Below, one piece after another: positions 3,615-53,303 of a stretch of DNA of 64,000 nt. This DNA comes from Rhynchopus sp. YZ270_cl-10 (Eukaryota), in NCBI GenBank assembly GCA_964035575.1, contig OZ037834.1:1736001-1800000 (forward strand), written 5' to 3'. Every line of letters begins with the position of its first letter. Position 1 is the stretch's first letter. Position numbers and translations under genes: made by a program. Under the pieces are notes generated by a model. It was not told the origin of the DNA. It made no database searches and saw only the letters and a list, made by a program, of their open reading frames with translations.

Positions 3615-3684
3615 ACAGCACAGGCTGCCGAAAACGGATTTTGGCTTTCGGAAATAATTTTACGGCAATTAAATATCAAATTCC

Positions 3685-26700: not shown

Positions 26701-26974
26701 TCTGCAGGATATGCGTGGCTCCCTCCAATCCATGCGGGACACAGTAAAGTCACCGAACACCTGGGAGGATGCGAAGCTCAGCCCCGCACGCTACTCCCGC
26801 GCCTCCTCCAGTCCAGGGGCATACTGGGAGAAGCTCAAAGGCATCATGGGTGACGACTACGTCGCAATAGAAGGCGACGGTGTCGGCAACATGGGCAACC
26901 TCCTCTCCCCTTCCCACTCAGGGTCGCCACTCCCAAGGGGCGACACCTCCCTAGAGGCTGGGTATCGAATGTGA
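23737..26974 (+). CDS. Kelch-repeat beta-propeller protein with Pro-rich and coiled-coil C-terminus; join(23737..23835,24123..24161,24482..26974)
   Basis: RAYHTAVVHGGRMIVFGG, WGHSAVLFNNYMLVYGG and RGLHVAEVVGAELLIFGG Kelch motifs. The two upstream exons are inferred from phase-0 GT-AG junctions and are less certain. Confidence 0.88.
23924..23956 (+). repeat. Hairpin repeat family A copy in Kelch gene intron 1
   Basis: GGTGACTAAGCACGAGAGGCTTAGGATCATCTT. Confidence 0.9.
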
Positions 26975-27210
26975 GATAGAACCAGCTTTTTTTTTTTTTT
27001 TGCGAGATCTGTAGACATGGCACATCTTGATATTTTGTGCGAATTTTAGAAGACTTCCTTTCCCCTCCCCCTGCCCCGTCTCCCTCCCAAAAAAAAACCA
27101 TGTATTTTCTGTAAAATGGCTGAATAAGATAGTGGGAGGGTGTTGTTTTTATCCTTTTCCTCCCCTGACATCATGTAACAACTCATCTCACAATACAGGG
27201 CCACAACACG

Positions 27211-30200
27211 ATGGCTGGGGCAATCGCCCTCGTCGTGCTTGCGGTTGTCGGTGATCTGCCTATATACTCAGACTTGACACCGCCGGCGCCGTATGTTAGT
27301 GTGAACAGCACATGGAACACTTCGAATTTTGCGTCGAATTTGCAGAGGCCGTTCCCGACCGGGCAGTGGTGGACGGCGTTCGCAGACCCAACGGGCACTG
27401 TAGACCCTGTGATCAACGCACTGCCCCTGCTTGTTAAGAGGATTGAGTGTGGGTTCGCCTTGGCACCCCCGACACTGACGTTTTCTAATGTGAATCGTGC
27501 TGCGTCGCACAGCTTCACCGACGACGTGACAGTGCGGGTGAGTACAAGCGCAACCGGGTGTGCGTCGTCGATCACCGGATGGGATTCATACTCAGTGACG
27601 ATGCTGCAGAGCGTGCCGCAGGGGTTGAGTGCGGGTGACGGGATTGAGTCGATCTTCGCGCGTGGGTCACCCTTCGCGTCGTTCAGGGCTGTGGGAGGTA
27701 CGTTTGCGGAGATCACCTTCAAGGACCGCATCCGGCAGGTCTCGAATGTGCAGATCAACGGTGCAGTGCCCGTCACGGCAAGCATGCTTAACATCACCAC
27801 AGAGGAAGGCGACGCGTGGCTCGTGTTGCTCCCACAAAAGACGCAGCTCACGATCACACGCACCAGTGTTGTCTACACAGAAGCAATGGACGGCTGGGTG
27901 CGTATCGCATACATCCCCACCACAGGAGGCTCGATCGCTGCCGCGTCCGAGTACCTCGTTGAGCACGGCAGCTGTGTCGCCCAAGGTGGTTCGCCCAACA
28001 CAGACATACGCGGCACAACACTGACAGTGGAACACAAATGGAACGGGGCAGGCAACACCTGCAACCCGCTGATGCTCACTGCGCCCCACCACAGGACATT
28101 CTGGAAAGACACGTGGTCGACTGCGTGGCTCAGCAGCCCGCTGCAGTACGAGACGCTGATGGGGGTGCTCATGCCTGCGCCCGCACGCTTCACGTCGTTC
28201 ACGCTTGCGCATGACGTTGTGGCCGGGTTTGACGACCTTACCACACGGGCGACAAACCTGCAGCTGTGCGAGGAGTACTTCCTTCACAACAAGGTGCTTG
28301 TGGACGATGCGTACCTCCTGGGCACCGTCCAGACAGACTCGAAGAACGCAACCGGAGAGGACGAATCCCTTCGGGTCAAGAGTCAGGAGCTCTACGGGCT
28401 GGCGAAGACGTACCGTGTGGCACGCCGTCTGAGTGCAGTGAAGATGGGACAACGTCTGCAGACGCGGATGTTTGAGGTGCTGTCAGGCATGACTTCGCTT
28501 GCTGCATACGACTCGACGTGGGGTGGCATGGTCATCTCGCCCCCAGACAGGCCCCTCTCCGAGAGCATCACCGACCAGTACGAGAACAACACAAAGATCT
28601 TCGGACGCATCCTCTATGGGTACGCAGAGCTCTACGGCACCCCGCCTGGGAGCGTCAAGCCTGCACCGACACCGCCAGCCTCTATCTCCGTCTTCATCAC
28701 GGCGCTGCTGCGCACGGTCATGTTCTCCGGCACCTCCGATTGGTACCCACAGCTGCGCAACTACGACTTCTACACGGCGCTGTCCTTCTCAGGTGGGCTT
28801 GTGGCCGACACCGAGGAGGGGAGGGTGTTGTCGGCCCCGTCAGATGCGCTGATTCAGTGGCAGGCTGCACGCGATGTGTCGACGCTGCTGGGCATTGCGA
28901 ACGCGACACAGCTGGCAACGATTCTGTTCACAATGGAGGCTGCCTCTGTGGGGGAGTACTGGCTGGCGCTCAACAGCAAGGTGGGAACGTCTTCTGTTGC
29001 AGTGGCGACGTACGGAACGATGAGCCTGTCGTCGCAGGACCAGCTCACAACACTGTCGCCTGTGGGCGAGCATCTGACGTCCCTGCGGACGGAGATTGCT
29101 TTGGTGGGGCGTACCACACAGATCATGACGAACCTGCTGCAGACGGTGCCGTCGACACTGCAGGACACAGCACGCCCCCTCGAGACGAACACATACGACC
29201 TCACGCTCCTCGGCATCATCAACGGCACGCACACGCTGCAGCTCCTCGAGAACGGCGTCAGCGTGAACTACACAGTCATGGAGCCGCTCTTCTCCATTGT
29301 TGAGTACGCCGTGCTCTCCGCCGACCCCTTCGCACTCATCCCCTGCAGCGAGATGTTCAGCACCTGGAACGGCTCACTCCCACTGACAGTGGTCGGACGC
29401 CAGCTGTGGTACAAAGACTCCTTCAACTACCAAGTGCGCTCCATCGACTACGTCCCCGGAGTGATCTACCGTGAGCCCACCCAGACCAACATCTACGGTT
29501 CTGTGTACGAGCGGATCTTCAAGCGTGACTTCCCGCGTATCAAAGACGCAGGGTTCAACACCCTGAAGGTGCGGTGGTTTTCGAGCAAATCTGTGTTGGG
29601 GATGACGGAGTTTGTGAACCTTGCGGCGGAGTTCGACTTGAACATTATTTTCACGTTTTCGGCGAGTGAGGATGAGGTGCTGAACAACAGGCATTTGACG
29701 GAGCAGCGTTTCATCGATGCGATGGATGCGATGGCCGACAAGTCAAACGTGATCATGTGGAACCTTGAGTCGACCTCCTTCGTGAGCATCTCTGTCGACG
29801 GTGCCTACAACTACCTGACGCTGTTCCGCCAGCTGCTGCGTATCCGTAACAAGTACGACTACTACCTGCGCCGCCCTCTGGCCCTCTCGCTTCTGCCCTT
29901 CTACGCCGATGCCTTGGCCGTGGGTGGACTCAACCCTGTCGACATTTACACCGACGGAGTTGAGATTGTCATCATGACGGTGTACGAACTGAACCTGACC
30001 TCCACACGAGAGCTGCTCGCAAAGGTCGCCCACCCCATCCACATCAACCTGCAGTCGGACTCGTACCACGGGATCAACGAGACGCAGGATGCTGTGTACC
30101 GTTCAGAGTTGCTGTTCAACCAGACGCAGATGGTGTTGGCATTGCACCACGAACACGAGGTGTGTGGTGTTGGTGTCATTGAGTGGGTGGACGAGTGGTG

Positions 30201-33200
30201 GCGTGGTGAGGACTCTGACTCTGACAACGACTGTTCGGACCCATCTCCCGGGCGTCACAGCCACTGTGCGACGCGCGTGATCGACTTCCACGACGGAGAG
30301 ATCAACCTTGAGCACCAAGGTCTGCACTTCCAAGAGGACAAGTGGCTGCTGCACTGCATCTCCCCGAAGCCGTCCTACAACGCTGTGTCGCGTGCGCTGA
30401 CCGGCACTTCTGTGGACCACGGCGAGTCGTGCCTCTTCATCCCCCTCGACAACTTCTGGGCCTGGTTCGTCATGATCGCGTCTGCAGCCTTCTTCATTGC
30501 AGGTATCGTCCTCTGCACCTCCATGCGTGTCCTTGCCTCCCGCAAGAAGCGCCGTGCCGAGAACAAAGGTGCCCAGTCGGGCACCCGCTGGCTCCAACCA
30601 GACATCTCAAAGATCTCGCGTATCATCGTGAAGCGTACCTGCACCCTCCCGCACACACAGACACCCTTCCAACGCATTGCCATCCAAACCGAGTCGGGTC
30701 TCTCCTCCAAGGACCCAGCCCCGCTCTCGGGGGAGTGGGAAGGCGAGGTGCTGTGGTCCGAGCTGGACCAGGTGCGCGAGCTTGGGGTGTTCCTCCAGTT
30801 TTCGGCCCTGCCAAACAATATTGGGTACACGATCCAAGGACAGGATGTTGGGAACAAATACAAGATCACTGGACAGACACGGTCGCTTGATGTTGCGCAG
30901 ACCTCTGGGATGCCGCGTACGAAGGAAGACGGGTCGAAGCTGCTTGTTGAGCGCTACTTGGTTGAGTTTGTTGCGAAGAACATGATCCCGGACCAGGACG
31001 GTGGGGTGGACGAGGACCTTGAGTTTGTTGGTGTGTGGGAGAAGTGGGAGTCGCTCCCGAACGAGGACGGCGCCACACGCATCTCTGAGGTCATTGCTGG
31101 CGGTGCTGCTGCAGCCCCTACCATCCCACGCGGCATTCAGACTGGGTGCAGAGTCATCGACCACGGCGAACCCTTCGTCGAGTTTGCCGGATCCTTCAAA
31201 CTCAGCCCACAGCCCGAGATCGACCCCTGGTGTTACAACAGATGGCAGTGTGTACGTCTCCAGCTGGAACGCCTGCAGATGCTTATCTACGACGAGATGC
31301 TCTGCCAAGGCCGCTGGGGGACAGAGGCCAAGTACCAAGAGACCGACGCTGCCTTTGACTACGCAGTGAGCACCCTGCACTACCGTTACATGCATTCTTT
31401 CTACGGATGGTGCCACGCGCAGGGGCAGGTCGGCGGGATCCTCGACATCCCAGACGAGGCGCAAGAGAAGCGGACCGACGAGCAGCTGACGGAGCTGCTT
31501 GCGCTCTTCACGCTGTGGCAGCTGGGTGAGCAGATGACGCTGTTTGCGGGACACTGGCTGAGTTGGAACTTCCACTACTTCATGAAGTTCAAGAAGTTCC
31601 CACCGACACACGTGATCAACGATGGGCGGCACTTCATGGAGACCAACCTCACATTTGACGACCTGAACGAATCATGTGCGTTGATGCCGTACTACGATGT
31701 GCCGCATCAGTGTAACGAGTACTGCCAGGAAGTGTGCTCGATTGCGCTTGAGGAGAAGGGCCAGCGTGCGATGCCGAAGCTGCTCCTTCCCGACGGCAAC
31801 GTCGACAAGAACGAGACCATGCGCTACCCCTTCTTCAAGACGTTCCGTGAGCCGCGCAAGTGGGGTGTCGTGTTCTACATGCTGCACGATGGGTTCTTCA
31901 TCCTGCACACAACGATCCTCATGTTCTTCTTCTGGGCACTTGTCGTACACTTCTCCGACGACAACGGCAGCCACGCCCTTGGCGAGGTCATGGAGCGCTC
32001 CTACAACGTGTGGAGTGGACAGCCGGACTCAATGCGCTTCATCTTCCTGGTGCTGTGCAAGATCGACTTCTGGATGGTCATCATCCACGAGTCGCTTGAT
32101 CTGTGGATCCTTTCTGGTATCACACAAAGCCCTGCGCTTGGTGTCCTGGGGACACGTGTGTGCAGCATGTTCGGTCTGATGGTGTGCTACTGCCGGTGCT
32201 GCTGCAAGCGGCAGAGGGGCGCGACAGACATCCGTGAGATCTCATGCCAAACGTTCTGGACGGACACGACGTGTCGCCGTATCCGACTGCGTCCGTTCTT
32301 CCAGCTGCGGTGGTCGTCGTACGTTGCGCTGGTGTCGTTTGCCATCTTCTTGGGTGAGTCGCTCTTTGAGAACGACGCAACCGTGTCGAGCATCCGCATC
32401 ACAGGGCACCTTCTCGTCCGCATCGGCTTCCTGCTGATCTTCAACGCCGTCATCACACTGTGGCCGCACAGACTGCACGGTTCCCCTGTACCGGCCGATG
32501 GGACGTCGCGCATCAACCACACTGCGTTGGTCATTTCGTTCTTCTTCTGGCTTCTCATTTACTCAGGCGCGTCGGTGTTCATGGCATGGACGATGTACCG
32601 CACGGAGAATACAGGGTTTTCGTTCTGTGACTGTGATGGGTTGCAGTCGGACATTGAGGACCACGGTGCGACTGAGTTTGGACGGGACTTACTGAGCAAG
32701 GTGTACTCTTGCGTGCGTGACCAGCCACGTTGCTTTACGGCAGTGTTTTTCATCTGGCTGTCGACGTGCGTGATGTTTGCGATCTCTGTCCACGGGGTGT
32801 TCCTGCTGGGTGTCGTCTTCCTTGGCGGTGTGAAGCACCTTCTCATGCAGTGGCAGAACAAGAAGTCGCGCAACCTGCGCTCCCACAAGATGGAGACGAA
32901 GTTCATCCTCTCCGCAATCAACGTCAAGCTGCTGTCCTTCTCAGACCCGCGAGACAACAAGCTTGCTATGCGCGTCTGGAACAGAGTCATCGAGGTCATG
33001 CACGAAGAGGACCTGCTCACATCATACGAAAGCGAGACCCTGCAGATCCACCCGCATATCGTCGACATCCAGTTCACACTCGAAAACGCCTTTGCAAAGG
33101 AACGCATGTCAGGCTTCCTTGAGTACCTTCAGAGCTCTACTGAGTTTGACGAGACGTTAGGCCCCGTGCAGTGCTACCCATCTGTGTCGGTGATCGTGCC

Positions 33201-36200
33201 TGTGTACGGTGAGAACGTCCTTGCCGACAAACGTGCCCTTCGTCTCAAGGCGCGTGGCGACCACCAGCAGCAGTCGCAGCTGCACTTCCTCGTTGAGTGC
33301 TACGAAGACGAATGGAACAACTTCATCGAGCGCTGTGTCAATGAACAGCGTCTCTTCCGTGGCGCGCTGCTTGAGGACCAGATTGTTGCCCTGCTGCAGG
33401 ACAAACAGACCCTGCAGGAGGAGTTCGACTACATCAAGAAGCGTGCCCTCAAGCCTGACCAGCGTCTGCGTGAGGTCTGCGGGAAGCGTGTTCTCGAGCT
33501 CTTCCACACGCGCCCGAAGCTCTTCAGCGACGAGGAGTTCGACGCTGTGTGGTGGTGGGCGTCGATGCGCATGCAGACTGTGGGCCGCACCATCCGTGGT
33601 ATCGAGCGCAACCGTGAGGCGATGCGCTTCCTTCTGGAGCTTGAGTCGGACTACACGCAGTCTGCGACCATCACCCCGACGTACATCGACATGATGTCTT
33701 CGGACAAGCTGCAGATTGTGATGGCCCTCCAGCGCATGTCGAACAGCAAATGGTACGACTCCAACAAAGAGGCGCTTGCAGCTGCGTGGCGGCGCTTCCC
33801 TAAGATGCAGGTGGTCTTCGACGTGGAGACGGCAGACTACCGCATGGCACCCGAGGTGTACCAGAAGAGCACGTACCTGATGCAGGACCTGTGGGACTGC
33901 ATGGAGTTCGCCTCTTGTGTTGCGCTGTGGGACGTCACGACTGAGGACTGGTATGTGAACCAGGTGGTGGGCAGGCGTCTGCCGCTGCGTATGACTAAGT
34001 CGGACCAAGTCAAGTGGAGCATCCCCGGCCCCATGCAAGGCAAGTCCGTGAACCAGGCACACTGTCTCCCCTTCTGCAAGGGGCAGGTCATCCAGACCGT
34101 CGACTGCAACCAGGACGGCTACTTCGAGGAGTCCCTCAAGATGCGGTCCCTCCTTGGGAAGTTCTTCCCGAGGGAGGACAGAAGGTGGTCGGAGTACAAG
34201 GTGGTGGGCCACCCGGAGTACGTCATCACGATGCAGTCGGGCACAGTCGGACGCTACGCAGGGTACGCTGAGTACATCTTCAACACGCTCTTCCAGCGTG
34301 TGCTCTCTACCCTTGGGGCACGCATGCACTACGGGCACCCCGACTACTTCGATGCCTCATGGGTGGTCACGCAAGGTGGGCTGTCGAAACCCAACCCCCG
34401 CCTGAACCTGAACGAAGATATCTTCGCCGGCTACCACATCAAAGCCTCTAAGGAGCACACCATCCACATGGACGACATGAAGAGCGGAAAGGGGCGTGAA
34501 ACGAACTTCGACGGCGCAATGGGTTTCGAGCAGAAGCTTGGCATGGGTGCGGCAATGCAGTACCGTTCCCGCGATGTGTTTGAGCTGTCGCGGTACTCAA
34601 ACTTTTTGGAGCGGCATTCGATTTTCTTTGGGTCGATTGGGATGTACGTTTACTTGGGACTTGTGTTCTCGCAGATCTTCACCACGATGATCCTGCACAT
34701 CTCCTTGCAGCTTGCAGGGAAGACCGAGTACGAGCTGAGCGGGACTCCTTACGGAAGCGAGTGGATGCTTCAGGTGACGTTGCTCGAGGCTCTGCCGCTT
34801 GGAGTGCAGCTTATCCTTGACTACGGCGTGTGGGGGCTGTTCCAGTGGTTCTGGGACTTCACCGGTGTGACGTGGTTCTTCTTGTTTGTATTCCTGACCA
34901 AATACCAGGCGTTCTGGGGCTCTGTTGTGCAGGGCAACGGGACGTACGTTGCTACAGGCCGTGTGGACCCGCTGTACCGCCGTTCATTCCGCCACATGTG
35001 GCGTCTCTACTCGCACTCCCACTTCATGTACGGCTCTCTGCTGCTCGCATTGGTAGTCCTCTTCATGGACATCACCAGCCTGAGTGGCTGGCGTGCGTTC
35101 ATTCGCTCGATCTTCCATTGGATGGTTGCCTTTGCTTGGATGGTCACACCATGTCTTTTCAACCCCTCTCTGACGATCCGTGGTTTGTTGAAGGACATTG
35201 TGCGGTTCTTTTTGTGGGTGTGGGGCGACGCCATTCAGAAGGTGAAGGGAACAGAAGACAGCCATACCCTTGGGGAGGGGCAACACAACGACAGAGGTGG
35301 CGAGAAGAAGAAGCTGGGTGAACTGTTCAACACTCTTGTCCGCAAGAACCGTGGTGATGCCGAAGGGGACGAGGCTGCGCAGTCTGGCGCCTTGGTGAGC
35401 AAATCACAGCGTGACGATGCGAAGACGCTTACTGCGTCACCATCGACCGAGTTTGGCGACAAGGACTCCTTCTTGGGCCTGCCTGCTGCAGAGGAGGAGC
35501 AACTAGAGAAGGACTTTGGTGTGAACGTGCTTTCCGAGCAGTCCTCTGAGGTTGTCGACGACTTTGGGGAGATGGAGATTGGCGACAACAAGCCGATTGC
35601 TGCTTCTACCGAGCATTCCTTTTCTCCACGCAACTTGCGTGGCTTTGAAGAATTCTACGACGCTGATGCACATCGCCCCACTGTGGGCACACGCCTCAAG
35701 AAGTTCGAAGACGACGACGAAGGCCTACGCGACTCAGACGAGCTCACCATGGAGCACTTCATCGACCGCGGTGTCGACCCCCGCACCCTCGACAACCTTG
35801 AAGACGTTTTCAACAAGCTCGATGCACGCAATCAATACCGTGGTCTCATTGGCCCCGAGCTCATCTTCCTTGGCTTCCTCAGTCGTGGTATCCGAGTAAA
35901 GCCCAGCGACGTCGAAGAGCACCTCCACGCACTGAACGTAACGGAGGTGACCCTCGAAGAGTTCTGTCTGATCTACTTCATGGTGGAGGGCACCAGCGCG
36001 CAGCTGGACAACTATGGGATTGACTATGCGATTGAGAATCTGCCGCAGGAGAAGTACGACTCAATTCTGAAGCAGCAGGAGGAGATGAAGAAGTACCGTC
36101 AGTACGACGACCCGCGCGATTTGCAGGCAGAATCCTACATTCAGTTTGCCTACGCGCTGAGACGCAGCAAGGCGGTGCGTGAGGTGCAGTTCTACGACTC

Positions 36201-39200
36201 AACACACAACCTGGACCGTGTCCGCACAGAGTCTCTTCTGCACCACTACAAGGTGGCGCTGGTTCTCGAGCACAGAGGGAACTCTACCACCGGCCGCTTC
36301 CTCTGGTGCCTCGCAACCATGGGTCTCTGGCTCTTCGCATACTTCGCACTGTGGCAGGACATCCTCTGGGAGGTGTTCTACTTCATCCTCATCTTCGCCT
36401 GGGAGTACGTTGTGTGCCTCCCCAACGTCGTGCCCATTGTGATCCTCACCAAGGTATTGGTGCACGTTTTTGTGTTTGTACGTCTGATCCTCATGCTTGG
36501 ACAAACAAACGTCTTCTTCCCAACGATCTTTATGACCTATTGGTTTGTGCACTCAGTCATTGCGTTGAAGCTCTCCTTCTGGTCCGCGTATGGACCGTAC
36601 ATCATGGGGCGTGATGCGTTCCGTGCGAAGCAGATTGACCAGCAGAGGGAGCGTGCGCTCTTGATGTTGCTGAAGGACTCCCGCGAGCAGTACCTCTTTG
36701 CGTTCAGCTACTATGTGTTCTGCAGGCGGATCCTTGCGATGATCATTGTGACGTTCCAGTTCCTCTTCTGCATCTTGGTGTTGCTGGTGAAGGCGATTAT
36801 TGCGCTGATCAGCTGGCTTATTTGGAACGTTGGGAAGTACTTTGCGAGACGCAATGCTACGCAGACGACGTACATCTCTTCAAGAGGGAAGGCGGAGGAG
36901 GAGAACAAGCAGCGGGGGCGCACCTCCTTTGATATGATGACACAAACCGACGATGGTGCCACGGGACGCGGCACGCATATGTGGGGTGAGGAGATGGGGA
37001 CACAGATCTACCTGCCTGGCGACGACGGCTTTGAAGATTTGATGCTTGTCCCGCCGGATATGCAGTACCTCCCGCAGCTCGGCTTTGGGCTGCCTGACGG
37101 CTTCAACCCTGAGGACTGGCCGCCAGAGTGGCTCGACCTTGCCTTCCCTGACGGCAAGGCGGCCTCGTGGCTGCCCGTTGCACTCAACGACGATCTCCCC
37201 CCAGCAGAATGGCTCAAAATTGCTTTCGGTGATGATGAGCTCCCTGCTGACTGGCTTGATGTCTGCCCACCCGACGAGCTTGGCTGGGAGTGGCCAGAAA
37301 AGCCGCCGAAGAACTGGCCTGAACGTCTCTCCTGGCCACCGCCACGCCCTGGAAAGAAGCAAACTGATGAGATTGACCCGGAGTGGCTGAAGTTCCTTGT
37401 TGCTGCGGACGACCTGGACCCGGAATACATCAAGAAGGCGTTGAAGAACGACCTGCCTGCGGCGGAGTGGCTGAAGATTGCGTTTGGTGGAGACGACTTC
37501 CCTGCGGAGTGGCTGGACATTGCACCGCCACCGGGTGGGTTGTGGCCTACCGAACCGCCACTGAACTGGCCCAAGGACGCACCATGGCCGCCACCACGAC
37601 CAAAGGCTGCCAAGCCCGGCGAACTGGACCCCCACTGGATCCGCAAGCTGATGGACCCCAAGAACGACGACACCCTCCGCAAGGTCCTCGAACAAGAGGA
37701 CGAACCGGTCGACTGGCTCAACCTCGCTGCCGGGAACGACCCCCCCGCAGACTGGCTCAACTTCCCAGGCGGCGGTCTTCCTAACAAACCTCCAAAACTA
37801 TGGCCCAAGCGTCTTCCTTACCCTCCTCCTAAGGGCAAAGACTTGCCAGATGACTTACCTGTTGATTGGCTTAAATTCGGGCTTGACAAAAAGGTGGATG
37901 ACGACAAACTGATTCACATTAGGGATCTTGACTTGCAGCCGGTTGATTGGTTGAAGCTTGCGTATGATGATGATGACTTGTCTCCTGAGATTCTTGGGTT
38001 TGCGCCGGAGCCGGGAAAACCTTGGCCTGAGAAGCCTCCACCGGGGTACCCAAGCGATGCACCGTGGCCTCCACCACGCACCTTCCTGGACGATGACGAC
38101 GATGATGTTGATGTAAAGTGGCTCAAGCTTGCCTTCGACGACGACGAACTCACCCCAGAGATGCTCAAGGCCGCTGTCGACGGTGACCTCGACCCCGCAG
38201 AATGGCTTAGGATCGCTCGCGGTGGCGACCCCAACGCAGAATGGCTCAACATGATCCCCGAACCTGGCAAGCTCTGGGCAAAACGCCCACCAAAAGACTA
38301 TCCCAAAGAAATGCCCTGGCCACCACCGAAGGTTCCAACAAACCCTACCAGACGACCTGTTGAAGGAGGGGAAATCCCTCCGGAATGGCTTGAAATTGCG
38401 TTAAATGATGGAGAAGATACTCTTGACCGCGCGCTTCGTGGTGAGTTGGATCCTTTCGATTGGCTCAAACTGGCGCGTGGTGCGGATCCTGACCCGGAGT
38501 GGCTGACATTGGGAGAGGACGGTGAATTTCCTTCAAAACCGCCTGCAAACTACCCTGCAGGACTGCCTTGGCCACCACCCAAGCGGAAGAAGGAGAACGA
38601 CGTATCTGCAGAGTGGCTTGCCTTTGCCATGGAACACCCCGACCTCGACGATGCTGGCAAACAACGTGCCCTGGATGGCGATCTCGACACAGTAGAATGG
38701 CTTAACCTCGCGGCCGGAGGCGACCCTGACCCAGACTGGCTCAAACTCGACTCTGATGGAGAATACAAAAAGGAGCGTCCAAAGAACTATCCTGCCAATG
38801 CACCATGGCCGCCACCAAAGCCAAAATCCGCTCCAGGAGCAGATGTACCAGAAGCCTGGCTGAACATTGCAATGAACTCTGACGCACCCATCGATGTCAA
38901 ACGACGTGCGTTCGAGGGTGACCTGCTCCCTGCAGAGTGGTTGAAGCTGGCGACGGGGGATAACCTTGACCCCGATTGGCTGTCGCTTGGACCTGATGGT
39001 GAGTTCCCTTTGGAACGCCCTGATAACTATCCTGTGGAGCTTCCATGGCCGCCGCCGAAGAATGCGGACTTTGATTTGCCAATTGATTGGATAAGGTTTG
39101 CGGCACTGCATCCAACAGCGCCGCCAGCATTGAAGAAAAAGGCAATGAACAATGACCTGGACCCTGTAGAGTGGTTGGCGTTGGCAGCAGGGGAAGACCC

Positions 39201-42200
39201 TGATGCGGATTGGTTGAAGCTCGGACCGGATGGTGAATACCCAACAGAACGTCCAAAGAATTATCCTCCAAACGCACCATGGCCGCCGCCGAAGGTAAAG
39301 GCACGCCCCGATACAGATGTCCCGCAGGAGTGGATTAACATCGCAATGAACGCAGACGCGCCGCTCGCAGTGAAGAAGCGTGCGATGTACGGACAGCTCC
39401 TGCCAACGGATTGGCTGCGTCTCTCTACAGGTGATATGAGTCCGCGGAATTCTTGGATGTCCTTCGGAAAGGATGGAAGCTTTGCAAAGCAACGTCCAAA
39501 GGATTACCCAGCGTCTGCACCATGGCCGCCACCGAAGCCTCGTGCAGGACCGCTCCCAAATTGGCTTGCATTCGCAGTGCAAAACCCGGACATCCCAACC
39601 GACCTCAAGAAGCGTGCCCTCGATGACGAACTCGATGTGATTGATTGGCTGCAGATTGCGGCGGGGGACAACCCGGTGGACCCGGATTGGTTGAAGTTGG
39701 GACCGGATAGGGAGTACCCTCTGGCTCGTCCACAGAACTACCCGCCGTATGCTCCGTGGCCACCGCCGAAGGCGAAGGCAGCACCTGGCGCAGACGTGCC
39801 TGAGGAGTGGCTCAACATCGCAATGAACGCAGACGCAACGCTGGATACAAAGAAGCGCTCTCTTGGGGCAGACCTCTTACCCGCAGAGTGGCTCAAGCTT
39901 GCAACAGGAAACGAACCAGACCCACGCTGGCTTGCCCTCGGCCCTGATGGCGAGCTTCCCAAGACACGCCCACCAGGCTACCCAGCGCACCTCCCATGGC
40001 CGCCTCCAAAGCGTCGTGGTGGCGACCTCCCGATCGACTGGATCAAATTCGCTCTCGCCAAACCGGACCTCCCGGAGGCAACCCGGAAGCGTGTTCTCTC
40101 GACACCTGGTGATATCCCCTCGGTGGAGTGGTTGCAGATTGCGGCTGGGAACGACCCGGTTGACCCGGCTTGGTTGAAGTTAGGACCGGACGGTGAGTTC
40201 GCGAAGGAGCGTCCAAAGAACTACCCAGCTGATGCGCCGTGGCCACCTCCCAAGCCGAAGACAAAGGAGGCAGCGAGCATTCCACCGGAGTGGCAGATGC
40301 TGCTGACGGATGCAGACTGCCCGCCGGATGCGAAGCGACGTGGCTTTGATGGAGACATGCTGAGTGCAGAGTGGCTGCAGATCGCGACCGGGGACGACCC
40401 GGACCCGAGCTGGCTGTCGCTTGGCCCAGATGGAAACTTCCCCGACGAACGCCCTGCGACGTACCCTGCAGACAAGCCGTGGCCACCACCTCCTCCTCCT
40501 CCGGTTCTGAAACCACGTACAAAGAAGCGTTCTACGGACTATGACCTGCCTGCAGAATGGCTCCAGGTGGCGTTGGATAAGAAGGTACCCGACGACACCC
40601 TCCGCCGTGCGCACCGTGGTGACATCAAACCGCAAGAATGGATCCGCATTGCGCTCGACGGCAAGGACCCACCCGCCACCTGGCTCTCTCTCGGTCCCGA
40701 TGGGAAGTTCCCCGCCACCCGCCCAGAAGGCTACCCAAAGAACCTCCCATGGCCGCCACCTGACGGAAAGAAGGGCGTTGCAGACGCGAACCTCCCTGCA
40801 GAGTGGCTGAAGATTGCAGTAGACCGTGGTGCATACGGCATGATCGACGACGCTGCGAACGACAAGCTTGACCCTGTGGAGTGGCTCAACCTTGCTATGG
40901 ATGGCAAGCAGATCGACCCAAAATGGCTCAAACTTGGCCCCGACGGAAAGTACCCCAAACACCCCCCTGTGGGCTATCCCAAAAACGTTCCGTGGCCGCC
41001 ACTGTACAAACGCCCTGACGAGGATCTGGACGCAACCATGATGAACGCACCTGAACGTCCCTTCGATTTGCCTCCAGAGTGGCTGGCGATGGCGTTGGAG
41101 CAGAATGTGCCGCTGGAGACCATTGAGCGTGCGAAGCGTGGTGAGCTGTCTGAGGTGGAGTGGCTCCGCATTGCGAACAACGGAGACGAGCCGCCACCGC
41201 TGTGGATGGACAAGAACGTGAAGGGCGACTGGCCGGCGGAGAGACCTGCCGACTACCCTGCGGATAGGCCGTGGCCACCACCGACCAATGCAAAGGACTA
41301 CGACCTGGACCCAGAGTGGCTTGCGATTGCCTTTGAAAGGAAGGCAACCAAGGCACAAATCAAGCGTGTCATCGAGGGCGAGATGCTCCCTGCAGAAATC
41401 CTCGAGCTTGCCCTCGGTGAAGACTCAATCAACCCAAGCTGGCTCACCGTCGACCAGAACGGCAACTACGCTGAGTCACGCCCTGCAGACTACCCCCCGA
41501 ACCTGCCGTGGCCCCCACCAAAGACAAAGGCAGCCACTACAGCGATTGCCGCCAGCGAAGTCCCCGTGGACTGGGCATCGTACACCCTAGGCCGGAAGGA
41601 CACCGAGAAGAACATGAAGGACCGCGCCCTTAAGGGTGAGCTCCGCCCGATCGACTGGCTCAAGCTTGTCAATGGAGGAGAGACGCCGCCTGAGGAGTGG
41701 CTTGATTTGAGTGGCGGGCGTCCTCCGGGGTACCCGCCGAATGCTCCGTGGCCTCCACCATCACAAAAATTCAACCCGAACTGGGAATACAAGAATAAAT
41801 GGATTAAATTTGCTTTGGCGCGGTGCGGCAGCAAGGCGGTGTTCACAGGCATGCAGAACGAAATGAAGCCCGAGGATTGGTTAACCCTCGCACGTGGCGG
41901 CCAGCCCCCTCCGAAGGAGTGGCTTCAAACAAACGCAGACGGCAACTTCCCCGAGAAGCCACCGGAGGACTATCCAAAGGACATGCCTTGGCCACCACCA
42001 CAGACCACCCCGGCTTTGATCCCTGCAAAGGAGAAGGCTTCGCCTGCAAGACGCAAGAAGCGTGCACCTACCATTGGAAAGAAGCAACAGAAGGCTGGGG
42101 TCAGCTTTGCCCCGAGCGGCAGTGCTATGAACGACGAAGATGCGGGGGTACCGACAGAATGGTTGAATCTCGCTTTCCACGCTCAGCCGCCGATGGACGA

Positions 42201-45200
42201 AGACAAGCTGAAGCTCGCGTTGAAGGGGGAGCTTCTCCCGCGGGAGTGGCTGCAGCTTGCGGCTGGTGGTGGAGAGATCCCTGCAGAGTGGTTGAAGCAT
42301 ATGCCCAACCCTGGAGAGGCGTGGCCAGCACAGCGTCCTGTAGGATACCCAGGGGATATGCCGTGGCCGCCACCGAGGACAAAGAAGGGAGATCTGTCGC
42401 CTCCGGTGTCGCCAAGCAGAAACCGTGCGCCGCCAAAATCGGATCAATTCCTGTCAGCGCCTGGAGGCGGGCGTGACGAGGAGAACCTTCCGGCAGTGTG
42501 GCTCAACTTCGCCTTTGGGAAGATCTCGCAGGATACTGGAGGGGGGCAGAAGGAGCTTGCCGCATCGCAGCTCCCGGACGTCATCAACAACGACCTGCCG
42601 CCAGCGGAGTGGCTCAAGATGGCGAACCGCGGAGAAGAGATCCCCGAGTCCTGGCATGCCATCATCCCAGCCCCAGGTGAGTCCTGGCCGCAGCTTGCAC
42701 CAGAAGGATACCCCATCGAAGCGCCTTGGCCACCTCCAAAACCAAAGACGTATGTTTCCTTTTATGAGATCTGATGTGAGAAGTGAGTCAGAAAACTCAA
42801 AAAAAAAAAAGCAATAAGAACCGGCTTTAAAGGGAGGTTGTTAAACTAGATTTTGTGTGATAACGATGATGGGGTGTGAGAGAGAGGAAAAAAAGCCGCA
42901 CCTACCCATGATGTAGTGGTGAATGGTGAAATATGTATGGGGGGTGTGCCAGAGGGTTGTCTCGAGGTGGACGGCAATGAAACATAGTGGAGGGAGTGGT
43001 TCGTGTTCTGTGGGTTATTAGGTGCACTAAATGAAACAGATTATAAATGAAAACAACACACCAAAAACAGGAACGGATTCGCATGCGAGGTGTGGGGAGA
43101 AGAGGGACCGACCTCAGCCAGGTCGAACCAGATCCAAGACGAGTATGTCAAAAAAAAATTTTTTGCTGCGCGATAACGAATGTGATCACGGTGACTAAGC
43201 ACGAAAGGCTTAGGGTCATCTTATTTAGCTCAACACTTTGCACCTTTAGAATTTTGGGCGACATGATATGGGAGGGCTTTTGTCAATTCCAATAAACATT
43301 ACACACAACAGACTTATGATTGGAACTGTCCCCAACGTGCAAGGATATGCCCCTGGTACTGAGGAGCCCAAGGAGAAGGTATGCTCTCGCTCCCTCACCC
43401 TCACCCCCACTCTCTACGAGCACGGTAAATAGTCGTGACTCAGCACGAAATGCTGCTAACTTTTTCTTCCTTTTTTTGCGCCCACGAAGGTGTCTGCAGG
43501 TTAGACTTTTTTTCCCTTCAGACTGTCATCAGACCATCATACACATATCATCCACCACGACAACAGAAACCGGCAGCCTGGACGAACAACGGTCTGCAGG
43601 AGTTCCAAGACCAACTCATCATGGGGTCGAACATCGCCCCGCAAGAGGAGCAGGAGAAGCCACGCAGGCCAGAGGAGTCGCACCTCATCTACTTCAAGGA
43701 GAACGTGCCGGGGGATGTGTCCAAGCCGGTCCATTTCGTGGACGCTGAAAACTTCCAGAACGTATGCCACAAAGCTTGACACTAGGTTTTGATTCATCGG
43801 TTTTTGTTTGTGTGTGTTTTTTATTTTTGGAGGCTGACAAAGATTCGTAGGTTTTCATAGCAGCGTGTCTCTTTAATTTTCACCCCACCACAGATTGCCG
43901 AGTTCCGTGCAGGAGTGCGCCACTTCTTGCAGTTCCGCGGACCTGTCGACCAGGTTCTTCTCCAGGTCAAGAAACGGGGTGACTTCACTGACTTGGTATG
44001 AATCAAACCCTGCTTGCTGCATCCCCTACCCTTGGTAGGGGATGACACGTTTTCTTCATTTAGTGCGCTGCACAGCATGCAGCTCTTTTCAATATTTTTT
44101 TTGCTGTGTTTGGCCTCACCGAGCACACCTTATTAGGATCATCCCTTTGTTTCCTGATTGTACTTTAGTCACACAACACCCCACCTTCAGGAGGAGATTG
44201 AAAACCACCACCAATGGCCTCTGCGCACATCGCATCAGAGCCCTGTGTTGGTGACAATCTTTGATCTGTACAAGCCGCGGATGAAGAAGCAGACGCTGAA
44301 GGTGAGGGGGAACCAGCTGAGGCTGGGGCTTTCGACGGATATTAATAGGCGTGCGATGACTGCGGCTGGGCGGAGGGACAACACGCAGAAGCCTGCTGTG
44401 CGGAACTTGATGAAGCAGGCATCGTCTCGCATGCTGAAGGCAGCGGCAGCAGCACCCGTGGTCGCTCCGTCGCAACGTGCACGCCACGGCAGAGTTGTCC
44501 AGGAGGACCTGGCGACCGTGCACGAGCCCCGCTCCTCCAGGCGCACGAACTCCCCCAAGAAGAAGCCCGCCGTCGCCAAGACCAAGGCAGAGTACTCAGA
44601 CTCCTCCGATTCCGAAACTGCAGGCGACGTCTTCGTCCCAGACATTGGTGTCACCTTAGAGACCGCAGAGCAGCACCGCAAGAACGTTGCAACAAGCGGA
44701 CTCAAGGTTGCAGCTTCGGTAGGCCCTGCACATGAGGGAGGCATCCGGGCGGGTATGTTATTTGGTTTATTTTCCCCCAATGAAGTCAACCCCCCTTTCC
44801 CCCCTGCATATCCGTTGATATGTTTTGCACCTTTTTTTGTATTCAAGATGAGCGGATCTCAGAAAAAAAATATTCAAAAGAGGAGACGACACTGATGGAC
44901 AAAACCCCATCTTTCGATTGAAAATATTATCTTACTCATGTTACCAACTGTCAATCTTCGCTAACCCTATGCATATTTCCCCTCATAGGTGACGTGATCC
45001 TCAGCATGAACGGACGCATCATGAACACAACCAGCGACGTCACAAAGCTTGTGAAACAGCTTAAGAAGGAGGAAAACAAAGACCCGCTTACTGTTGTCGT
45101 TAACCGCAGCGGTGCGGGTGGACGCGCGACACTTCTTGTCAAGATGTTCAACGAGCTGCCCGCGAAGACTCAACTTCAAGCAGACTTTAAGCTGCCCACT

Positions 45201-45671
45201 TTAGGGGATATGTTCAAGAAGATGGCAGGCAGCAGTAGTCCTAACATCACAGCGAACCGCTCGGCGACTGCGATTCCTATGATACAACCACCGACACCGA
45301 GGGGCATTGTACCGCCACCTGCTACCACGAACATGGCGTCGAGCAGCAGTCTCAACATCCCTATGCAAGCTGCACCGGGTCTGACCCCTGCAGGAGGGGG
45401 TGCCCAACCAGGTCTGGTCTCCCCGGCCATTCCTCGGAGAAACTCCTTCAACCCGTCCGTCCAAAGGCGGGGCTCCATTGCGATGTCCCGACGTGGTTCC
45501 AACGCTGGCATGCTCGGCATGCCCCGTCCTACAGTGATGGAGGCTACACCGCGTACAATTCACGGAATGCTCGCAGCACCAGAAGGTCTAGACGCGCAAC
45601 CCGCACCCCCTTCCGCCCCTCAACCCCCTGAGGGAAGCATTTCGCTGACCCTCCCAACCCCTAGGGAGTGA
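27211..45671 (+). CDS. FKS1: Giant multidomain 1,3-beta-glucan synthase (GT48, FKS/callose/paramylon synthase family), ~5715 aa; join(27211..42749,43312..43378,43567..43761,43894..43995,44191..44752,44989..45671)
   Basis: GT48 motifs WASMRMQTVGRTIRG, GKSVNQAH...QTVDCNQDGYFEESLKMRSLL, RMHYGHPD, LNEDIFAG, GKGRE, YVATGR, LYSHSHF. N-terminal GH81-like and TIM-barrel domains. Five GT-AG introns preserve the frame to a PDZ motif (GPAHEGGIRAGDVILSMNG). The symbol is family-level only. Confidence 0.93.
43190..43222 (+). repeat. Hairpin repeat family A copy in glucan synthase intron 1
   Basis: GGTGACTAAGCACGAAAGGCTTAGGGTCATCTT. Confidence 0.9.
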
Positions 45672-48600
45672 AAAAAACAAAGTAGGTTAAAAATAAAATT
45701 CTCATTCTTTTGTCGCTAAGCATGGCTTGGTTTCAATTTTTTTCTTTTCTTTTTCAGTGCATTTTTTTTTGCCTTGGGGCGTTTTGTACAAAAAAAAATT
45801 CTGCCAGTGTTGTCTCAAAAAGGGGGGTGGGTGGTGTTTTTTACGTTAGGTTCGGTCTTTCCCAGATATGGTAGCTTCTTTTGTGTTTTTTTTTTTTTTT
45901 AACTACAAAATGTAGTGTTGCAGTAGCAGCTTTTTTCAAAGGTGACTAAGCACAGAGAGGCTTAGGTTCATCTTACCAAACTTTTCTGACATTTTTTTTT
46001 TCTTCTCTTCAACAGTTTAGATATGTTCCTGGCAGGGTGAGGGCGCTCTTTTTGAACTCAAAGTTTGTCATTTATTTATTATACCTTCTATTCAGTAGAA
46101 TAGTTAGTATATGTCATTATTATGAAACATTTTTTTTTTTTTTTTTTGCTCATGCGGTCCATCGGTACTCTTGTGTTTGATGTCTAGTGCCCTTGAGGCC
46201 ATTCGTCTTGCAAAGTGTTTCTCTTTTCCCCTTTTCTTTTCATGCTTGAGGTGAACCATTCTATTCTTTGGTTAGAATAGAAAAGTTTATTTCTTTTCAA
46301 CAAAAAAAAAAATACATGATCTAGTTAGTTCATCTGTCCCCCTTGTATTTTATTCCTGGTGTCCTGCGTCAAAGCAAAAGGCGTTCACTTTTGAAGTTTC
46401 ATCCTTTTTTTTTTCAGATTTGTGTGCACAAGAAGGTGCATTCATCTTTCAAAAATTCTATTTTTTTTTTTTTTAAACTCACAGAAGATTTAGTGGGTCA
46501 TTACAAGACTTCCTTTAGCCTATTTTCTTCGTTTCTGTCTATCTTTGGTATTTTGTGTGCATGAGGGACACATTCATTTTCCAAATTCGTTTTTTTTTTC
46601 CCCCCCCTTCCTTTTCTTCACGGAGGCGTCAGTGCCTGCGTCCCAGAGGCGTTTTGCACTATCAACTTCACTTTTTTGATTATGTGGGTCTTACCAAACC
46701 CTCAAATTCTCTCCCTTTGGTGTCTCCCCCCCCCTAAAGGTCGGTCTTTCAATCCTAGAAAACTCTAAGGGGTTTGAATTTAAATAGAATGACAAAAAAA
46801 AAAACCAAAAAAAAAATTTGCGAAAAGCGATAGTTTATACCACTGCAAATTATTTTTATCCCACTTCAAAAAGGTATTTCTCAACCTGGGTGGTTTTTTT
46901 CTTTTTTCTTTTTTCTTTTACGCCTACCTGCCTGCCCTTTCCCCCCCTCCCTTTTCTCCCGAACAAAACAAGAGGTAACGCTCTTCTGAATAAAACAAAG
47001 CTTGGGGGTTAATCCAACACTTTCAGTAGTTCACTTTTTTTTTTGTGTGTGAGTTATCTGGGGAACCTTCTTATGTTCTGTTAAGAGAACGTTATTTTGG
47101 AACCCCTTTTTTTAACCATTTCCCCCCCTTTTCGGGGGAGCATTTATTTTATAGACTAACAGATGGAATCGATCGGGTTGAAGATAAAACACCATTTTGT
47201 TGGAATGGTATTTTATTCAATTCGATTAGTCAAAAAACGGTTGCATACGGGGAAGCTTGGTGGGGGGTAGAAAAAAACGTGCGTTCTGCATACCGGAGGG
47301 GGCCCTGCGCGTTATTCGACCTTCACTTTGTGCACTGTGAAGCACATCCCATCTTTTAAAACTTTTGGCAAGAATGGAGTTAAGAAACGCGTATCTACAG
47401 CATATCTGTAGCAAAGTGTTGAATCTTCTTCTCAGCCTTTTCTTACAATTTTTTATGTACAAAAAAAAGGGGGCTTTTTTTTTTCAAAGTTTTTACAATT
47501 CACCAAACCTGTCTTCTTCCGTAGCCCAACACCCCCCTTTATTTTTCCGTAACCGACCCAATATGGTCTTTTTTTCAAAATGGTCCTTCTGAATACTTTT
47601 TCTCTCCTTCTTGCAGGAGAACCTCTCACTTTACGATTCCTCCCTTCAGCGGGGCCAACTATTTGAAAATCTGTGTTTTTTCCCCCACCCTAAGATTGGT
47701 GAGGCCTATGTGAGGCCCGTTCATATCTTCCAAAAAAAAAATAAAACAATTATCCCCTCTTTCTGCCTTTTTAGAACGGAGATTCCCTACCCATGATAGC
47801 CCATATTCACCTCTGTTCAGTTCTTCTTCTTCTTCTTTTTTTTGATTTTTCCTCTGGTGACCTGAGTTTCCAAGGGTGTCACTGAAAGGGGACGTGACGT
47901 GAATTATTATTTGCTAAAATAGCTCCACTGCAATTATTTCCAGATGCCAATTATGGCTTAAAACACCACTCCTAGAAAGGATTATTGGCTTGAGGAAATA
48001 ATTTTACGGCTATTTTTTTTTTTTTTTTTTTGCATTTTATGGCAGAGAGAAGTACGAAAAAAAAAATGGTATTGAAAGAATACCTCTAGAGACAACACAA
48101 TGATGGCAATATCTGTGCAAGGTGGTCAAGCATGGTGGGCTTGTCGTTCATCTTACAACCCCCTTTTTTCTTTCTTCTTTTGTGGGAGCGGGAGGGTTGT
48201 TTTCTTACAAAGTTTTAGTATTACAAAATGTACAAGCTGGCAGTTAGTGTGAGTACGGTGGTGAAAGAGGAAAACAAAAGAGGGATTATTTTTACAATTT
48301 CAAAATTTCTAATTTCCCTCCACCCCTCCTCAACAAGAGCACACTGGCCACAGGTGTCGGAGATCCGCCCAAAACAGCATTTTCGGAGTCTTCAGTTAAG
48401 CACATCGTGCATGACCACCTCCGCTTGCTTCCAGGAGTTTGCAAGCATTTTTTCTTCCCCCTTACCATTCGTTTAACAGTGTCCCTCACTGGCTTTGCGC
48501 TTCAATTTTGCGACAGGATTTTTTTTCTTTGAAATAAATTCCTCCGACTACTTCACACCTTCAATACATACTCCCCCCGACACGAAACAGAAGCTTTTTT

Positions 48601-52569: not shown

Positions 52570-53303
52570 GGGGAGATCCGGGTGCCCGCAACAACAATAT
52601 TCACAAGCAATCACAAAAAAAAAATCCTCTTCACAAAAAATCACAAACAATCACAAACAAAAAATCTTATTCACACAAAATCACACAAAATCACAAAAAA
52701 TAAATCCTATTCACAAAAAATCACAAACAATCACAAAAAATAAATCCTATTCGCAAAAAAACACAAACGATCACAAAAAATCACAAAAATCACAAAAAAT
52801 CACAAAAAAAAAATCCTATTCACAAACAATCACAAAAAATCACAAACAAAAAATCTTATTCACAAAAAATCACACAAAATCACAAAAAATAAATCCTATT
52901 CACAAAAAATCACAAACAATCACAAAAAATCACAAAAAATCACATCCACTTTTTGTGATTTTTTGTGATTTTTTGTGATTGTTTGTGATTTTTTGTGAAT
53001 AGGATTTTTTTTTTGTGATTGCTTGTGATTTTTTGTGAATAGGATTTATTTTTTTGTGATTTTGTGTGATTTTTTGTGAATAAGATTTTTTGTTTGTGAT
53101 TTTTTGTGATTTTTTGTGAATAGGATTTTTTTTTTGTGATTGCTTGTGATTTTTTGTGATTTTTTGTGATTTTTTGTGATTTGTTGTGAATAGAATTTTT
53201 TTTTTGTGATTTTTTGTATTTATTTTGTGTGATTTTGTGTGATTTGTTGTGATTTTTTGTGATTTTTTGTGAATATTGTTGTTGCGGGCACCCGGATCTC
53301 CCC
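52570..53303. mobile_element. Foldback-type element: ~370-bp inverted arms built from TCACAAAAAA-type subrepeats
   Basis: Termini GGGGAGATCCGGGTGCCCGCAACAACAATATTCACAA and its exact reverse complement. Centre near 52945. Confidence 0.85.

What the first reader, a model, noticed from the sequence alone, without database searches (positions are those of the whole stretch)
37100..42749. Unrecognised ~80-aa Trp/Pro repeat in 22 tandem copies
Each unit runs roughly PxEWLxxA...xKRALxGDLxPxEWLxLAxG.DPDPxWLxLGPDGxFPxxRPxNYPxxxPWPPP. I count 22 PWPPP-type ends. The units are diverged at DNA level but keep four Trp, which points to a folded domain rather than low-complexity sequence. I do not recognise the family. 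It could bind carbohydrate through aromatic stacking or present polyproline docking sites.
Basis: partly seen in the sequence, partly recalled or inferred. Interest (0 to 1): 0.72.

Follow-up and report, generated by a model that had tools for sequence, protein, structure and literature searches.

The report
New repeat on giant glucan synthase
In a marine single-celled eukaryote, a giant enzyme that likely makes the storage sugar paramylon carries 22 copies of a small protein module that matches no family in the libraries searched, is predicted to fold, and likely forms a long stalk inside the cell that anchors or positions the enzyme.

Summary
The repeat is real: 22 units of 69-86 aa at 37102-42741, mean identity 40%. 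It is not a free-standing gene. It fills the tail of a 5,739-aa, seven-exon diplonemid GT48 beta-1,3-glucan synthase, and one 17.5-kb spliced contig covers the whole model. Domain order: degenerate GH81, GH-A-like barrel, GT48 with its catalytic residues kept, EF-hand-like pair, extra membrane block, 22 repeats, a conserved ~95-aa domain, PDZ. Orthologues carry 17-23 copies, Namystynia one; the paralogue has none. End units keep their position across species, middle units vary. No Pfam, NCBIfam, PHROGs or PDB sequence match. AlphaFold2 gives a four-helix unit with an ordered Pro-rich arm (pLDDT 96), and three units are predicted to pack (pTM 0.78); fold searches gave no clear match. Topology is likely cytosolic, opposite the glucan product. 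Best reading: a semi-rigid stalk linking the synthase to terminal interaction domains (0.5). Glucan stacking and free polyproline docking are disfavoured. The enzyme is already listed as GT48 in a published supplement; I found no description of the repeat.

The parts
27199..45960 (+). Whole transcription unit, 7 exons, spliced CDS 17,220 nt = 5,739 aa
   Evidence: Model has one stop and six GT-AG introns; one 17,544-nt contig of run X5 covers 27198-45960 and skips all six
27211..42749 (+). Coding part of exon 1 (aa 1-5179); the ORF end at 42774 is read-through into intron 1
27268..29370 (+). GH81-like domain (aa ~20-720), catalytic motifs degenerate, likely luminal
   Evidence: PF17652 24.7 bits, cut-off 25.6; profile hits GH81 structures at E 3e-10; motif tally
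29383..30435 (+). GH-A-like TIM barrel (aa ~725-1075), nucleophile Glu absent
   Evidence: Profile hits PDB 9g4n/9fz9 at E 1e-4 and 2e-4 over positions 9-279; no Pfam hit
30451..30540 (+). First transmembrane helix (aa 1081-1110)
   Evidence: hydropathy
31198..35190 (+). GT48/FKS-type glucan synthase body (aa ~1330-2660) with Y1999, E2001, K2278, N2281, D2298 and E2402-D2403
   Evidence: PF02364 E 5e-88; alignment to yeast Fks1; positions; residue roles from PMC12715860
35788..36090 (+). Degenerate EF-hand-like pair (aa ~2860-2960)
   Evidence: Weak PF13499/PF13405 in two orthologues, below cut-off; centrin E 0.93; alignment
36292..36840 (+). Extra C-terminal membrane block (aa 3028-3210), followed by a K/R-rich stretch
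37102..42741 (+). 22 Trp/Pro repeats (the finding). Units start at 37102, 37369, 37621, 37852, 38104, 38371, 38599, 38842, 39073, 39316, 39547, 39793, 40024, 40276, 40543, 40789, 41065, 41302, 41557, 41767, 42145, 42484
43071..43142 (+). Exon 2
43312..43378 (+). Exon 3
43567..43761 (+). Exon 4; start of the conserved ~95-aa tail domain (aa 5263-5358, spread over exons 4-6, about 43675-44289)
43894..43995 (+). Exon 5
44191..44752 (+). Exon 6; end of the tail domain, linker, first half of the PDZ domain (from about 44638)
44989..45671 (+). Exon 7 coding part; second half of the PDZ domain (to about 45158), Pro/Ser-rich end, stop codon
   Evidence: PF17820/PF13180 listed for the D. papillatum and Flectonema orthologues

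Best explanation
The 22 units form the tail of a diplonemid GT48 beta-1,3-glucan synthase that likely makes paramylon, and they are predicted to fold into small four-helix modules that pack on their neighbours, likely forming a long semi-rigid cytosolic stalk that holds a conserved ~95-aa domain and a PDZ domain away from the membrane and so would anchor or space the synthase. Shown: the gene model, domain order, copy numbers, and which units are conserved by position. Predicted: unit fold, ordered Pro-rich arm, unit-to-unit packing. Inferred: cytosolic side; a length of some tens of nanometres (22 units at 2.5-3 nm each, my estimate); that the conserved Trp and Pro are structural; that the degenerate glucanase domains on the far side of the membrane hold the emerging glucan and do not cut it; and the tethering role itself.
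For: Same polypeptide and mRNA as the synthase. GT48 catalytic residues kept. D. papillatum makes paramylon and its CAZyme table lists two GT48 genes, this orthologue and the paralogue. AF2: one unit pLDDT 96.1, pTM 0.83; three units pLDDT 87.8, pTM 0.78. Over 94 units, the 13 columns at 80% or more are all W, L, A or P. Copy number varies (17, 18, 18, 22, 23). Unit 1 finds unit 1 as best match in 12 of 12 species pairs, unit 2 in 11 of 12, the last unit in 11 of 12, but units 8-12 in only 0-2 of 12. The slot between the last membrane block and the tail domain is 101-672 aa in 6 of 6 complete paralogue-B proteins and 1,708-2,221 aa in 5 of 5 complete paralogue-A proteins, with the tail domain kept in all 11. 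Cytosolic side: about 8 K/R per sequence after the last hydrophobic block; 1 N-glycosylation sequon in 1,966 aa against 12 in the 1,061-aa N-terminal part; PDZ at the end.
Against: No partner, location or activity was measured. The last hydrophobic block (aa 3161-3210) could cross the membrane once or twice, so the side is inferred. The three-unit alignment held window units only and was partly out of register, and pTM shows confident packing, not a rod: a curved or compact array is possible. One column is Asp or Glu in 94 of 94 units and 85 of 94 units are net acidic, which would also suit a repeated binding surface. Paralogue B does without the array, so it is not needed for catalysis as such. 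Which of the two paralogues makes paramylon is unknown.
Confidence: 0.5

Rival explanations
1. Each unit is a binding module and the array is a multivalent cytosolic scaffold for one partner (a regulator, UDP-glucose supply enzymes, or cytoskeleton); copy number tunes avidity, not length.
For: Invariant acidic column (94 of 94) and net negative charge in 85 of 94 units; a semi-conserved Arg (62%) before the invariant Pro; fungal Fks1 is controlled by a cytosolic partner, Rho1 (PMC12715860).
Against: All columns at 80% or more are hydrophobic or Pro; the acidic column sits at a helix start where it may only cap the helix (inference); Namystynia has a single full unit.
Confidence: 0.25
2. The arrays of neighbouring synthases zip together and cluster several enzymes, so that glucan chains emerge together and form the paramylon triple helix.
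For: Units are predicted to pack on each other in cis; paramylon is triple-helical (reference title seen in PMC8949617).
Against: Units are net acidic and would repel; paralogue B and Papus show no array (the Papus protein may be incomplete).
Confidence: 0.1
3. The units bind beta-1,3-glucan by Trp stacking, as a carbohydrate-binding array.
For: Six aromatic columns per unit at 81-100%, on a glucan synthase.
Against: Helix Trp lie on the hydrophobic face; no conserved Asn, Gln, His, Ser or Thr column above 50%; likely on the side opposite the product; the luminal side already has two glucanase-derived domains.
Confidence: 0.1
4. The PWPPP ends are exposed polyproline ligands for SH3, WW, EVH1 or profilin-type partners.
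For: P-x-x-Y-P-x-x-x-P-W-P-P-P is the best conserved part of the unit; likely cytosolic.
Against: The arm is predicted ordered at pLDDT 95-97 within a single unit, as expected if it packs on the helices; the truly free parts are the short, unconserved linkers.
Confidence: 0.05

Closest known systems
GT48 / FKS beta-1,3-glucan synthases (yeast Fks1 and Gsc2, plant callose synthases, Euglena EgGSL2)
   Same: PF02364 domain, catalytic and UDP-glucose residues, multi-pass membrane body. EgGSL2 mutants change paramylon granules (PMC6790356 passages).
   Different: About three times the length of Fks1 (5,739 against 1,876 aa); N-terminal GH81-like and barrel domains, extra membrane block, repeat array, tail domain and PDZ. 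I did not have the EgGSL2 sequence and could not compare its architecture.
D. papillatum DIPPA_33377 (orthologue) and DIPPA_09258 (paralogue)
   Same: Listed as 'GT48, b-1,3-glucan synthase' (5,525 aa) and 'GH81-GT48' (3,893 aa) in supplementary table S1A of PMC10161547. The enzyme class and the GH81-GT48 fusion are therefore on record.
   Different: The table rows say nothing of the repeat, the barrel, the lost catalytic residues or the tail. The paper's Additional file 1 could not be read.
Papus ankaliazontas GT48 (P0024)
   Same: GH81, barrel and GT48 in the same order; sister to both diplonemid paralogues.
   Different: GH81 motifs intact; the sequence ends after the synthase body, with no array.
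Fission yeast Bgs3-Ghs2 synthase-remodeller pair (PMC13612389, abstract only)
   Same: A glycoside-hydrolase-fold domain placed at the glucan exit of a GT48 synthase.
   Different: Separate GH16 protein proposed to be an active branching enzyme; here two fused domains of other families that have lost catalytic residues.
Trp-cage / polyproline-over-helix mini-folds (recalled, no call)
   Same: A Trp-bearing helix followed by a Pro-rich arm that may pack over it.
   Different: 73-aa four-helix unit with three such Trp helices; no sequence or structure hit to such proteins appeared. A lead only.

Membership tests
GT48 beta-1,3-glucan synthase (host protein) | Glucan_synthase domain PF02364 above cut-off | tested here: met
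   296.8 bits, cut-off 37.2; PDB Fks1/Gsc2 E 1e-39
GT48 beta-1,3-glucan synthase (host protein) | ED motif (Fks1 E1221-D1222) | tested here: met
   E2402-D2403, kept in 8 of 8 orthologues
GT48 beta-1,3-glucan synthase (host protein) | UDP-glucose residues Y849, E851, K1082, N1085 and D1102 | tested here: met
   Y1999, E2001, K2278, N2281, D2298; D-C-N in place of D-A-N
GT48 beta-1,3-glucan synthase (host protein) | FKS1_dom1 (PF14288) | tested here: inconclusive
   No hit in the window protein or listed for diplonemid relatives; a diverged cytosolic domain occupies the place
GT48 beta-1,3-glucan synthase (host protein) | Glucan synthase activity | not testable with these tools
   needs an assay
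GH81 endo-beta-1,3-glucanase | Homology to the GH81 N- and C-terminal domains | tested here: met
   Window 24.7 bits, just under 25.6; three of four orthologues scanned pass; six-plus GH81 structures hit, best E 3e-10
GH81 endo-beta-1,3-glucanase | Catalytic Asp of the NDHH motif and Glu residues of the NQESxSE motif (roles recalled; no paper found) | tested here: not met
   Window has N, S, D. 0 of 13 diplonemid sequences keep both the Asp and the first Glu; Papus keeps all three and aligns to PDB 4k35
Clan GH-A TIM-barrel glycosidase (PDB 9fz9/9g4n; recalled as GH157, unverified) | Sequence homology over the barrel | tested here: met
   E 1e-4 over profile positions 9-279; further GH2 and GH5-type rows at E 0.006-0.04. 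Weak
Clan GH-A TIM-barrel glycosidase (PDB 9fz9/9g4n; recalled as GH157, unverified) | Nucleophile Glu on strand 7 (the position that is Glu in 9fz9 and Ala in 9g4n) | tested here: not met
   No Glu in that segment of the window protein; a conserved Asp lies next to it
Clan GH-A TIM-barrel glycosidase (PDB 9fz9/9g4n; recalled as GH157, unverified) | Acid/base Asn-Glu after strand 4 | tested here: inconclusive
   Ser aligns to the Glu; a Glu (E853) lies one residue earlier, so a one-residue shift would change the call
Any described repeat family (the finding itself) | Profile match in Pfam, NCBIfam or PHROGs | tested here: not met
   0 Pfam families at E<=1, 0 NCBIfam at E<=10, one PHROG at E 0.27
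Any described repeat family (the finding itself) | Structural match to a solved fold | tested here: inconclusive
   No listed family stands out; small helical domains can be missed
Carbohydrate-binding module | Exposed aromatic platform with conserved polar contacts | tested here: inconclusive
   Trp on the hydrophobic helix faces and no conserved polar column apart from one acidic site; solvent exposure not measured
Polyproline ligand (SH3/WW/EVH1/profilin) | Disordered, accessible Pro-rich segment | tested here: not met
   Predicted ordered, pLDDT 95-97; prediction only
PDZ domain (tail) | PDZ profile match | tested here: met
   PF17820 and PF13180 listed for P0004 and P0006; spliced window model scores 54 bits on a two-sequence profile of those; exon pieces alone give no Pfam hit

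The most novel reading that the evidence does not exclude
An undescribed fold, a helical Trp core clamped by its own polyproline arm, is stacked into a variable-length molecular ruler on a single-chain paramylon-building machine: the synthase extrudes glucan, two fused dead glucanases template the triple helix in the lumen, and the cytosolic stalk with its tail domain and PDZ sets the spacing or anchoring of synthases, and thereby granule number and shape.
Probability: 0.2. Interest if true: 0.8.

Novelty: new variant of a known kind. Interest (0 to 1): 0.55.

Why it matters
Diplonemids are among the most abundant marine microeukaryotes (abstract of PMC10161547) and store carbon as paramylon, yet how a GT48 synthase builds a membrane-bound crystalline granule is not explained in the passages I read. 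This gene puts the synthase, two likely non-catalytic glucan-handling domains and a long cytosolic array on one chain, next to a paralogue without the array, in a genetically tractable organism (D. papillatum). That makes the roles directly testable by deletion. The unit is also a small domain that is predicted with high confidence, has no clear structural match, and is an easy target for a structure.

Tried and rejected
Fold searches gave no clear match. One unit: Foldseek PDB 0 hits at E<=0.001; VIA-align over 48,161 chains best Z 2.4, rmsd 2.9, 50 aligned. Three units: Foldseek PDB and BFVD 0 hits; VIA best Z 3.0, rmsd 3.0, 48 aligned. This does not prove a new fold. ESM Atlas: best scores 0.75 for the repeat and 0.77 for the tail domain, leads only. 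Complex prediction of two three-unit chains: no answer, score 0.00, alignment not used. Four of six hits of the 1.84-billion search were rejected as compositional: a cadherin-like Ig repeat protein and three short xEW-type repeats, none with a unit at 30 bits. The word-based search for longer proteins found 1 among 7,994 scored candidates and is weak evidence. Scans of viral and prokaryote contigs with units 6-15 found nothing (close relatives only). The metagenome scan returned one unrelated GT48 contig without repeat. The tail domain looks like a beta-grasp by eye but has no PDB or Pfam support, so it is left unnamed. No RNA holder was listed as such. BLAST found no internal repeats in the slots of Namystynia A, Artemidia B or Namystynia B, although Namystynia A shows short helical motifs by eye. 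An IQ-TREE run on units timed out and was replaced by FastTree. Tanaka 2017 and Skodova-Sverakova 2020 are not held. No genome is held for the window. Earlier findings of the scan: one unrelated note and two empty look-ups. My first exon 4 start was one base off and was corrected.
Full report
OBSERVATION. The region lies in one ORF, 27211-42774 (+), 5,187 codons. It holds 22 units, aa 3298-5177 (window 37102-42741), with cores of 69-86 aa and linkers of 4-47 aa. Mean identity is 40% (24-70%); fourfold third positions are 32% identical, so the units are old and kept at protein level. A profile from two other species alone recovers 22 of 22 units at 40-96 bits; the best score in 200 shuffles of the region is 9 bits.

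THE GENE. The repeat is the tail of a GT48 beta-1,3-glucan synthase: PF02364 E 5e-88, yeast Fks1/Gsc2 E 1e-39. The residues that PMC12715860 names as catalytic or UDP-glucose binding (passages) are all present. Orthologue tails match downstream exons. A seven-exon model with six GT-AG introns gives 5,739 aa and one stop. One 17,544-nt contig of run X5 begins at the acceptor 12 bases before the ATG and skips all six introns to 45960. The run's kind is not on record; I infer RNA from the splicing, and 22 further 5' bases that were not shown may be a spliced leader. Three other runs were contiguous across introns where the listed pieces show it, and X6 gave nothing. Order of parts: weak signal peptide, GH81-like domain, GH-A-like barrel, membrane helix, synthase body, EF-hand-like pair, extra membrane block, 22 repeats, a ~95-aa domain, PDZ.

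ORGANISM AND DISTRIBUTION. The GT core groups with Rhynchopus euleeides (90% identity, support 99/97) inside a diplonemid paralogue A clade; paralogue B is its sister and Papus ankaliazontas lies outside both (26 rows; names; tree; the tool warns of long branches near the root). Of 36 proteins scanned, 9 hold a unit at 30 bits or more, all paralogue A: window 22, P0010 (R. humris cluster) 23, D. papillatum 17, Flectonema 18, P0005 18, R. euleeides 9 and P0003 1 (both cut short), a Sulcionema fragment 4, Namystynia isoform P0011 1. P0007 ends before the slot and Namystynia P0008 has only partial units. None was found in 8 paralogue-B proteins (2 of them end before the slot), in Papus, in 12 other GT48 hits or in 4 non-GT48 hits. 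Among 1.84 billion representatives, 6 passed E 0.001; 2 are these proteins and 4 are compositional. Euglena and Bodo synthases did not come up and were not compared.

EVOLUTION OF THE ARRAY. Among four full arrays, unit 1 is best matched by unit 1 in 12 of 12 ordered pairs, unit 2 in 11, the last unit in 11, the next to last in 8, but units 8-12 in 0-2. FastTree groups first, second and last units across species (0.93-0.97). In the window, units 7-14 alternate (58% same parity, 50% other), the trace of a two-unit block duplication. The slot between membrane block and tail domain is 101-672 aa in six complete B proteins and 1,708-2,221 aa in five complete A proteins. Each unit carries three copies of a D/E-x-P-x-E-W-L helix start.

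STRUCTURE. No Pfam, NCBIfam or PDB sequence match, one PHROG at E 0.27. AF2 on 22 units: pLDDT 96.1, pTM 0.83, helices 4-12, 17-24, 30-38, 44-47 and an ordered 26-residue arm. Three units: pLDDT 87.8, pTM 0.78, no low-confidence linker, from an alignment that was partly out of register. Over 94 units (P0005 and P0003 left out as near-duplicates) the 13 columns at 80% or more are W, L, A or P; one column is D or E in all 94. The three helix Trp lie 51-72 degrees from the centre of the hydrophobic face when they are left out of the moment. I had no coordinates, so burial and overall shape are inferred.

TOPOLOGY. The N-terminal 1,061 aa have 12 sequons, the 1,966 aa after the membrane block one. 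K/R-rich stretches flank the last hydrophobic block on both sides (about 8 per sequence, 8 orthologues), and a PDZ ends the chain. The array is likely cytosolic, the glucanase-like domains luminal. A single crossing of aa 3161-3210 would reverse this.

THE LUMINAL DOMAINS. Papus keeps the GH81 motifs and aligns to PDB 4k35; 0 of 13 diplonemid sequences keep both the Asp and the first Glu. The catalytic roles of these residues are recalled, as two searches found no paper. The barrel resembles 9fz9/9g4n (E 1e-4) and lacks the Glu that is Ala in 9g4n; the acid/base position is ambiguous by one residue. A GH81 is reported to bind triple-helical glucan (PMC8949617 passage), so non-catalytic glucan holding is a reasonable inference.

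MECHANISM. Most likely (0.5) the array is a semi-rigid cytosolic stalk: conserved core, variable surface, variable middle copy number, fixed ends, and a conserved domain at the tip. A multivalent partner-binding scaffold is the main rival (0.25), then trans-zipping of synthases (0.1), glucan binding (0.1) and polyproline docking (0.05). D. papillatum makes paramylon (PMC10161547 passage) and lists two GT48 genes, so one or both paralogues likely make it; Euglena paramylon is made by a membrane-bound synthase and ends in membrane-bound grains (PMC6630311 passage).

WHAT IS KNOWN. The orthologue is tabulated as GT48 and the paralogue as GH81-GT48 (supplement S1A). I found no description of the repeat in searches on paramylon, GT48, GH81, Diplonema, EgGSL2, callose synthase and PDZ. 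These cover open-access text only and did not query the repeat's sequence. Additional file 1 of PMC10161547 was too large to read, and Tanaka 2017 and Skodova-Sverakova 2020 were not held; any of them may bear on novelty. Seen as passages: PMC7965971, PMC10161547, PMC8061765, PMC8949617, PMC6630311, PMC5745450, PMC12715860, PMC8611851 (supplements searched, no hit), PMC6790356. Abstract only: PMC13612389.

VERDICT. A real, lineage-restricted repeat domain without a match in the libraries searched, on a known kind of enzyme with an unusual architecture. New variant of a known kind; interest 0.55.

Noticed in passing
window 23924-23948, 43190-43214 (intron 2 of the synthase), about 45931-45985, weak copy 49549: A ~50-nt dispersed element (3 pattern matches, 0 expected; the copy near 45940 seen by eye). 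Bins holding it have summed contig depth 100-fold or more above flanking single-copy DNA, and contigs of the spliced run X5 carry it too.
   Followed up: partly
window 23616-27124 (+): Kelch-repeat gene with a long Pro-rich coiled-coil tail; its spliced contig ends 74 bases before the synthase's 5' acceptor.
   Followed up: partly
window 57240-63719 (+): 2,159-aa ORF with Big_9, cadherin-like and CshA-like matches, a likely surface protein with bacterial-type Ig domains.
   Followed up: no
window 108-391, 3460-3545, 9495-9753, 13607-14015: Near-perfect 7-8-nt tandem repeats sharing a GGTA core.
   Followed up: no
window 19143-21359 (+): Ion-channel pore domain followed by a weak LIM-like match.
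   Followed up: no
window 43675-44289 (exons 4-6); P0004 4995-5088 and nine other relatives: A ~95-aa domain kept at the tail of both diplonemid GT48 paralogues, with no Pfam, PDB or Atlas match; looks like a beta-grasp by eye; not folded.
   Followed up: partly
P0008/P0011 (Namystynia), aa ~3550-5650: The slot holds about 2,000 aa of different, mostly helical-looking sequence with one full unit in isoform P0011 (aa 3979-4051) and only a partial one in P0008.
   Followed up: partly
P0022/P0023 (Artemidia, Namystynia paralogue B): UVR coiled-coil matches before the EF-hand region and short beta-rich, SH3-like-looking segments in the slot (by eye; no BLAST self-match).
   Followed up: no
P0024 (Papus ankaliazontas): GH81-barrel-GT48 fusion with intact GH81 motifs, which suggests that the diplonemid domains lost activity after an active fusion arose.
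   Followed up: partly
window 52601-53272: AT-rich arrays (periods 10-149) in facing orientation, TCACAAAAAA-type then TTTTTGTGA-type.
   Followed up: no
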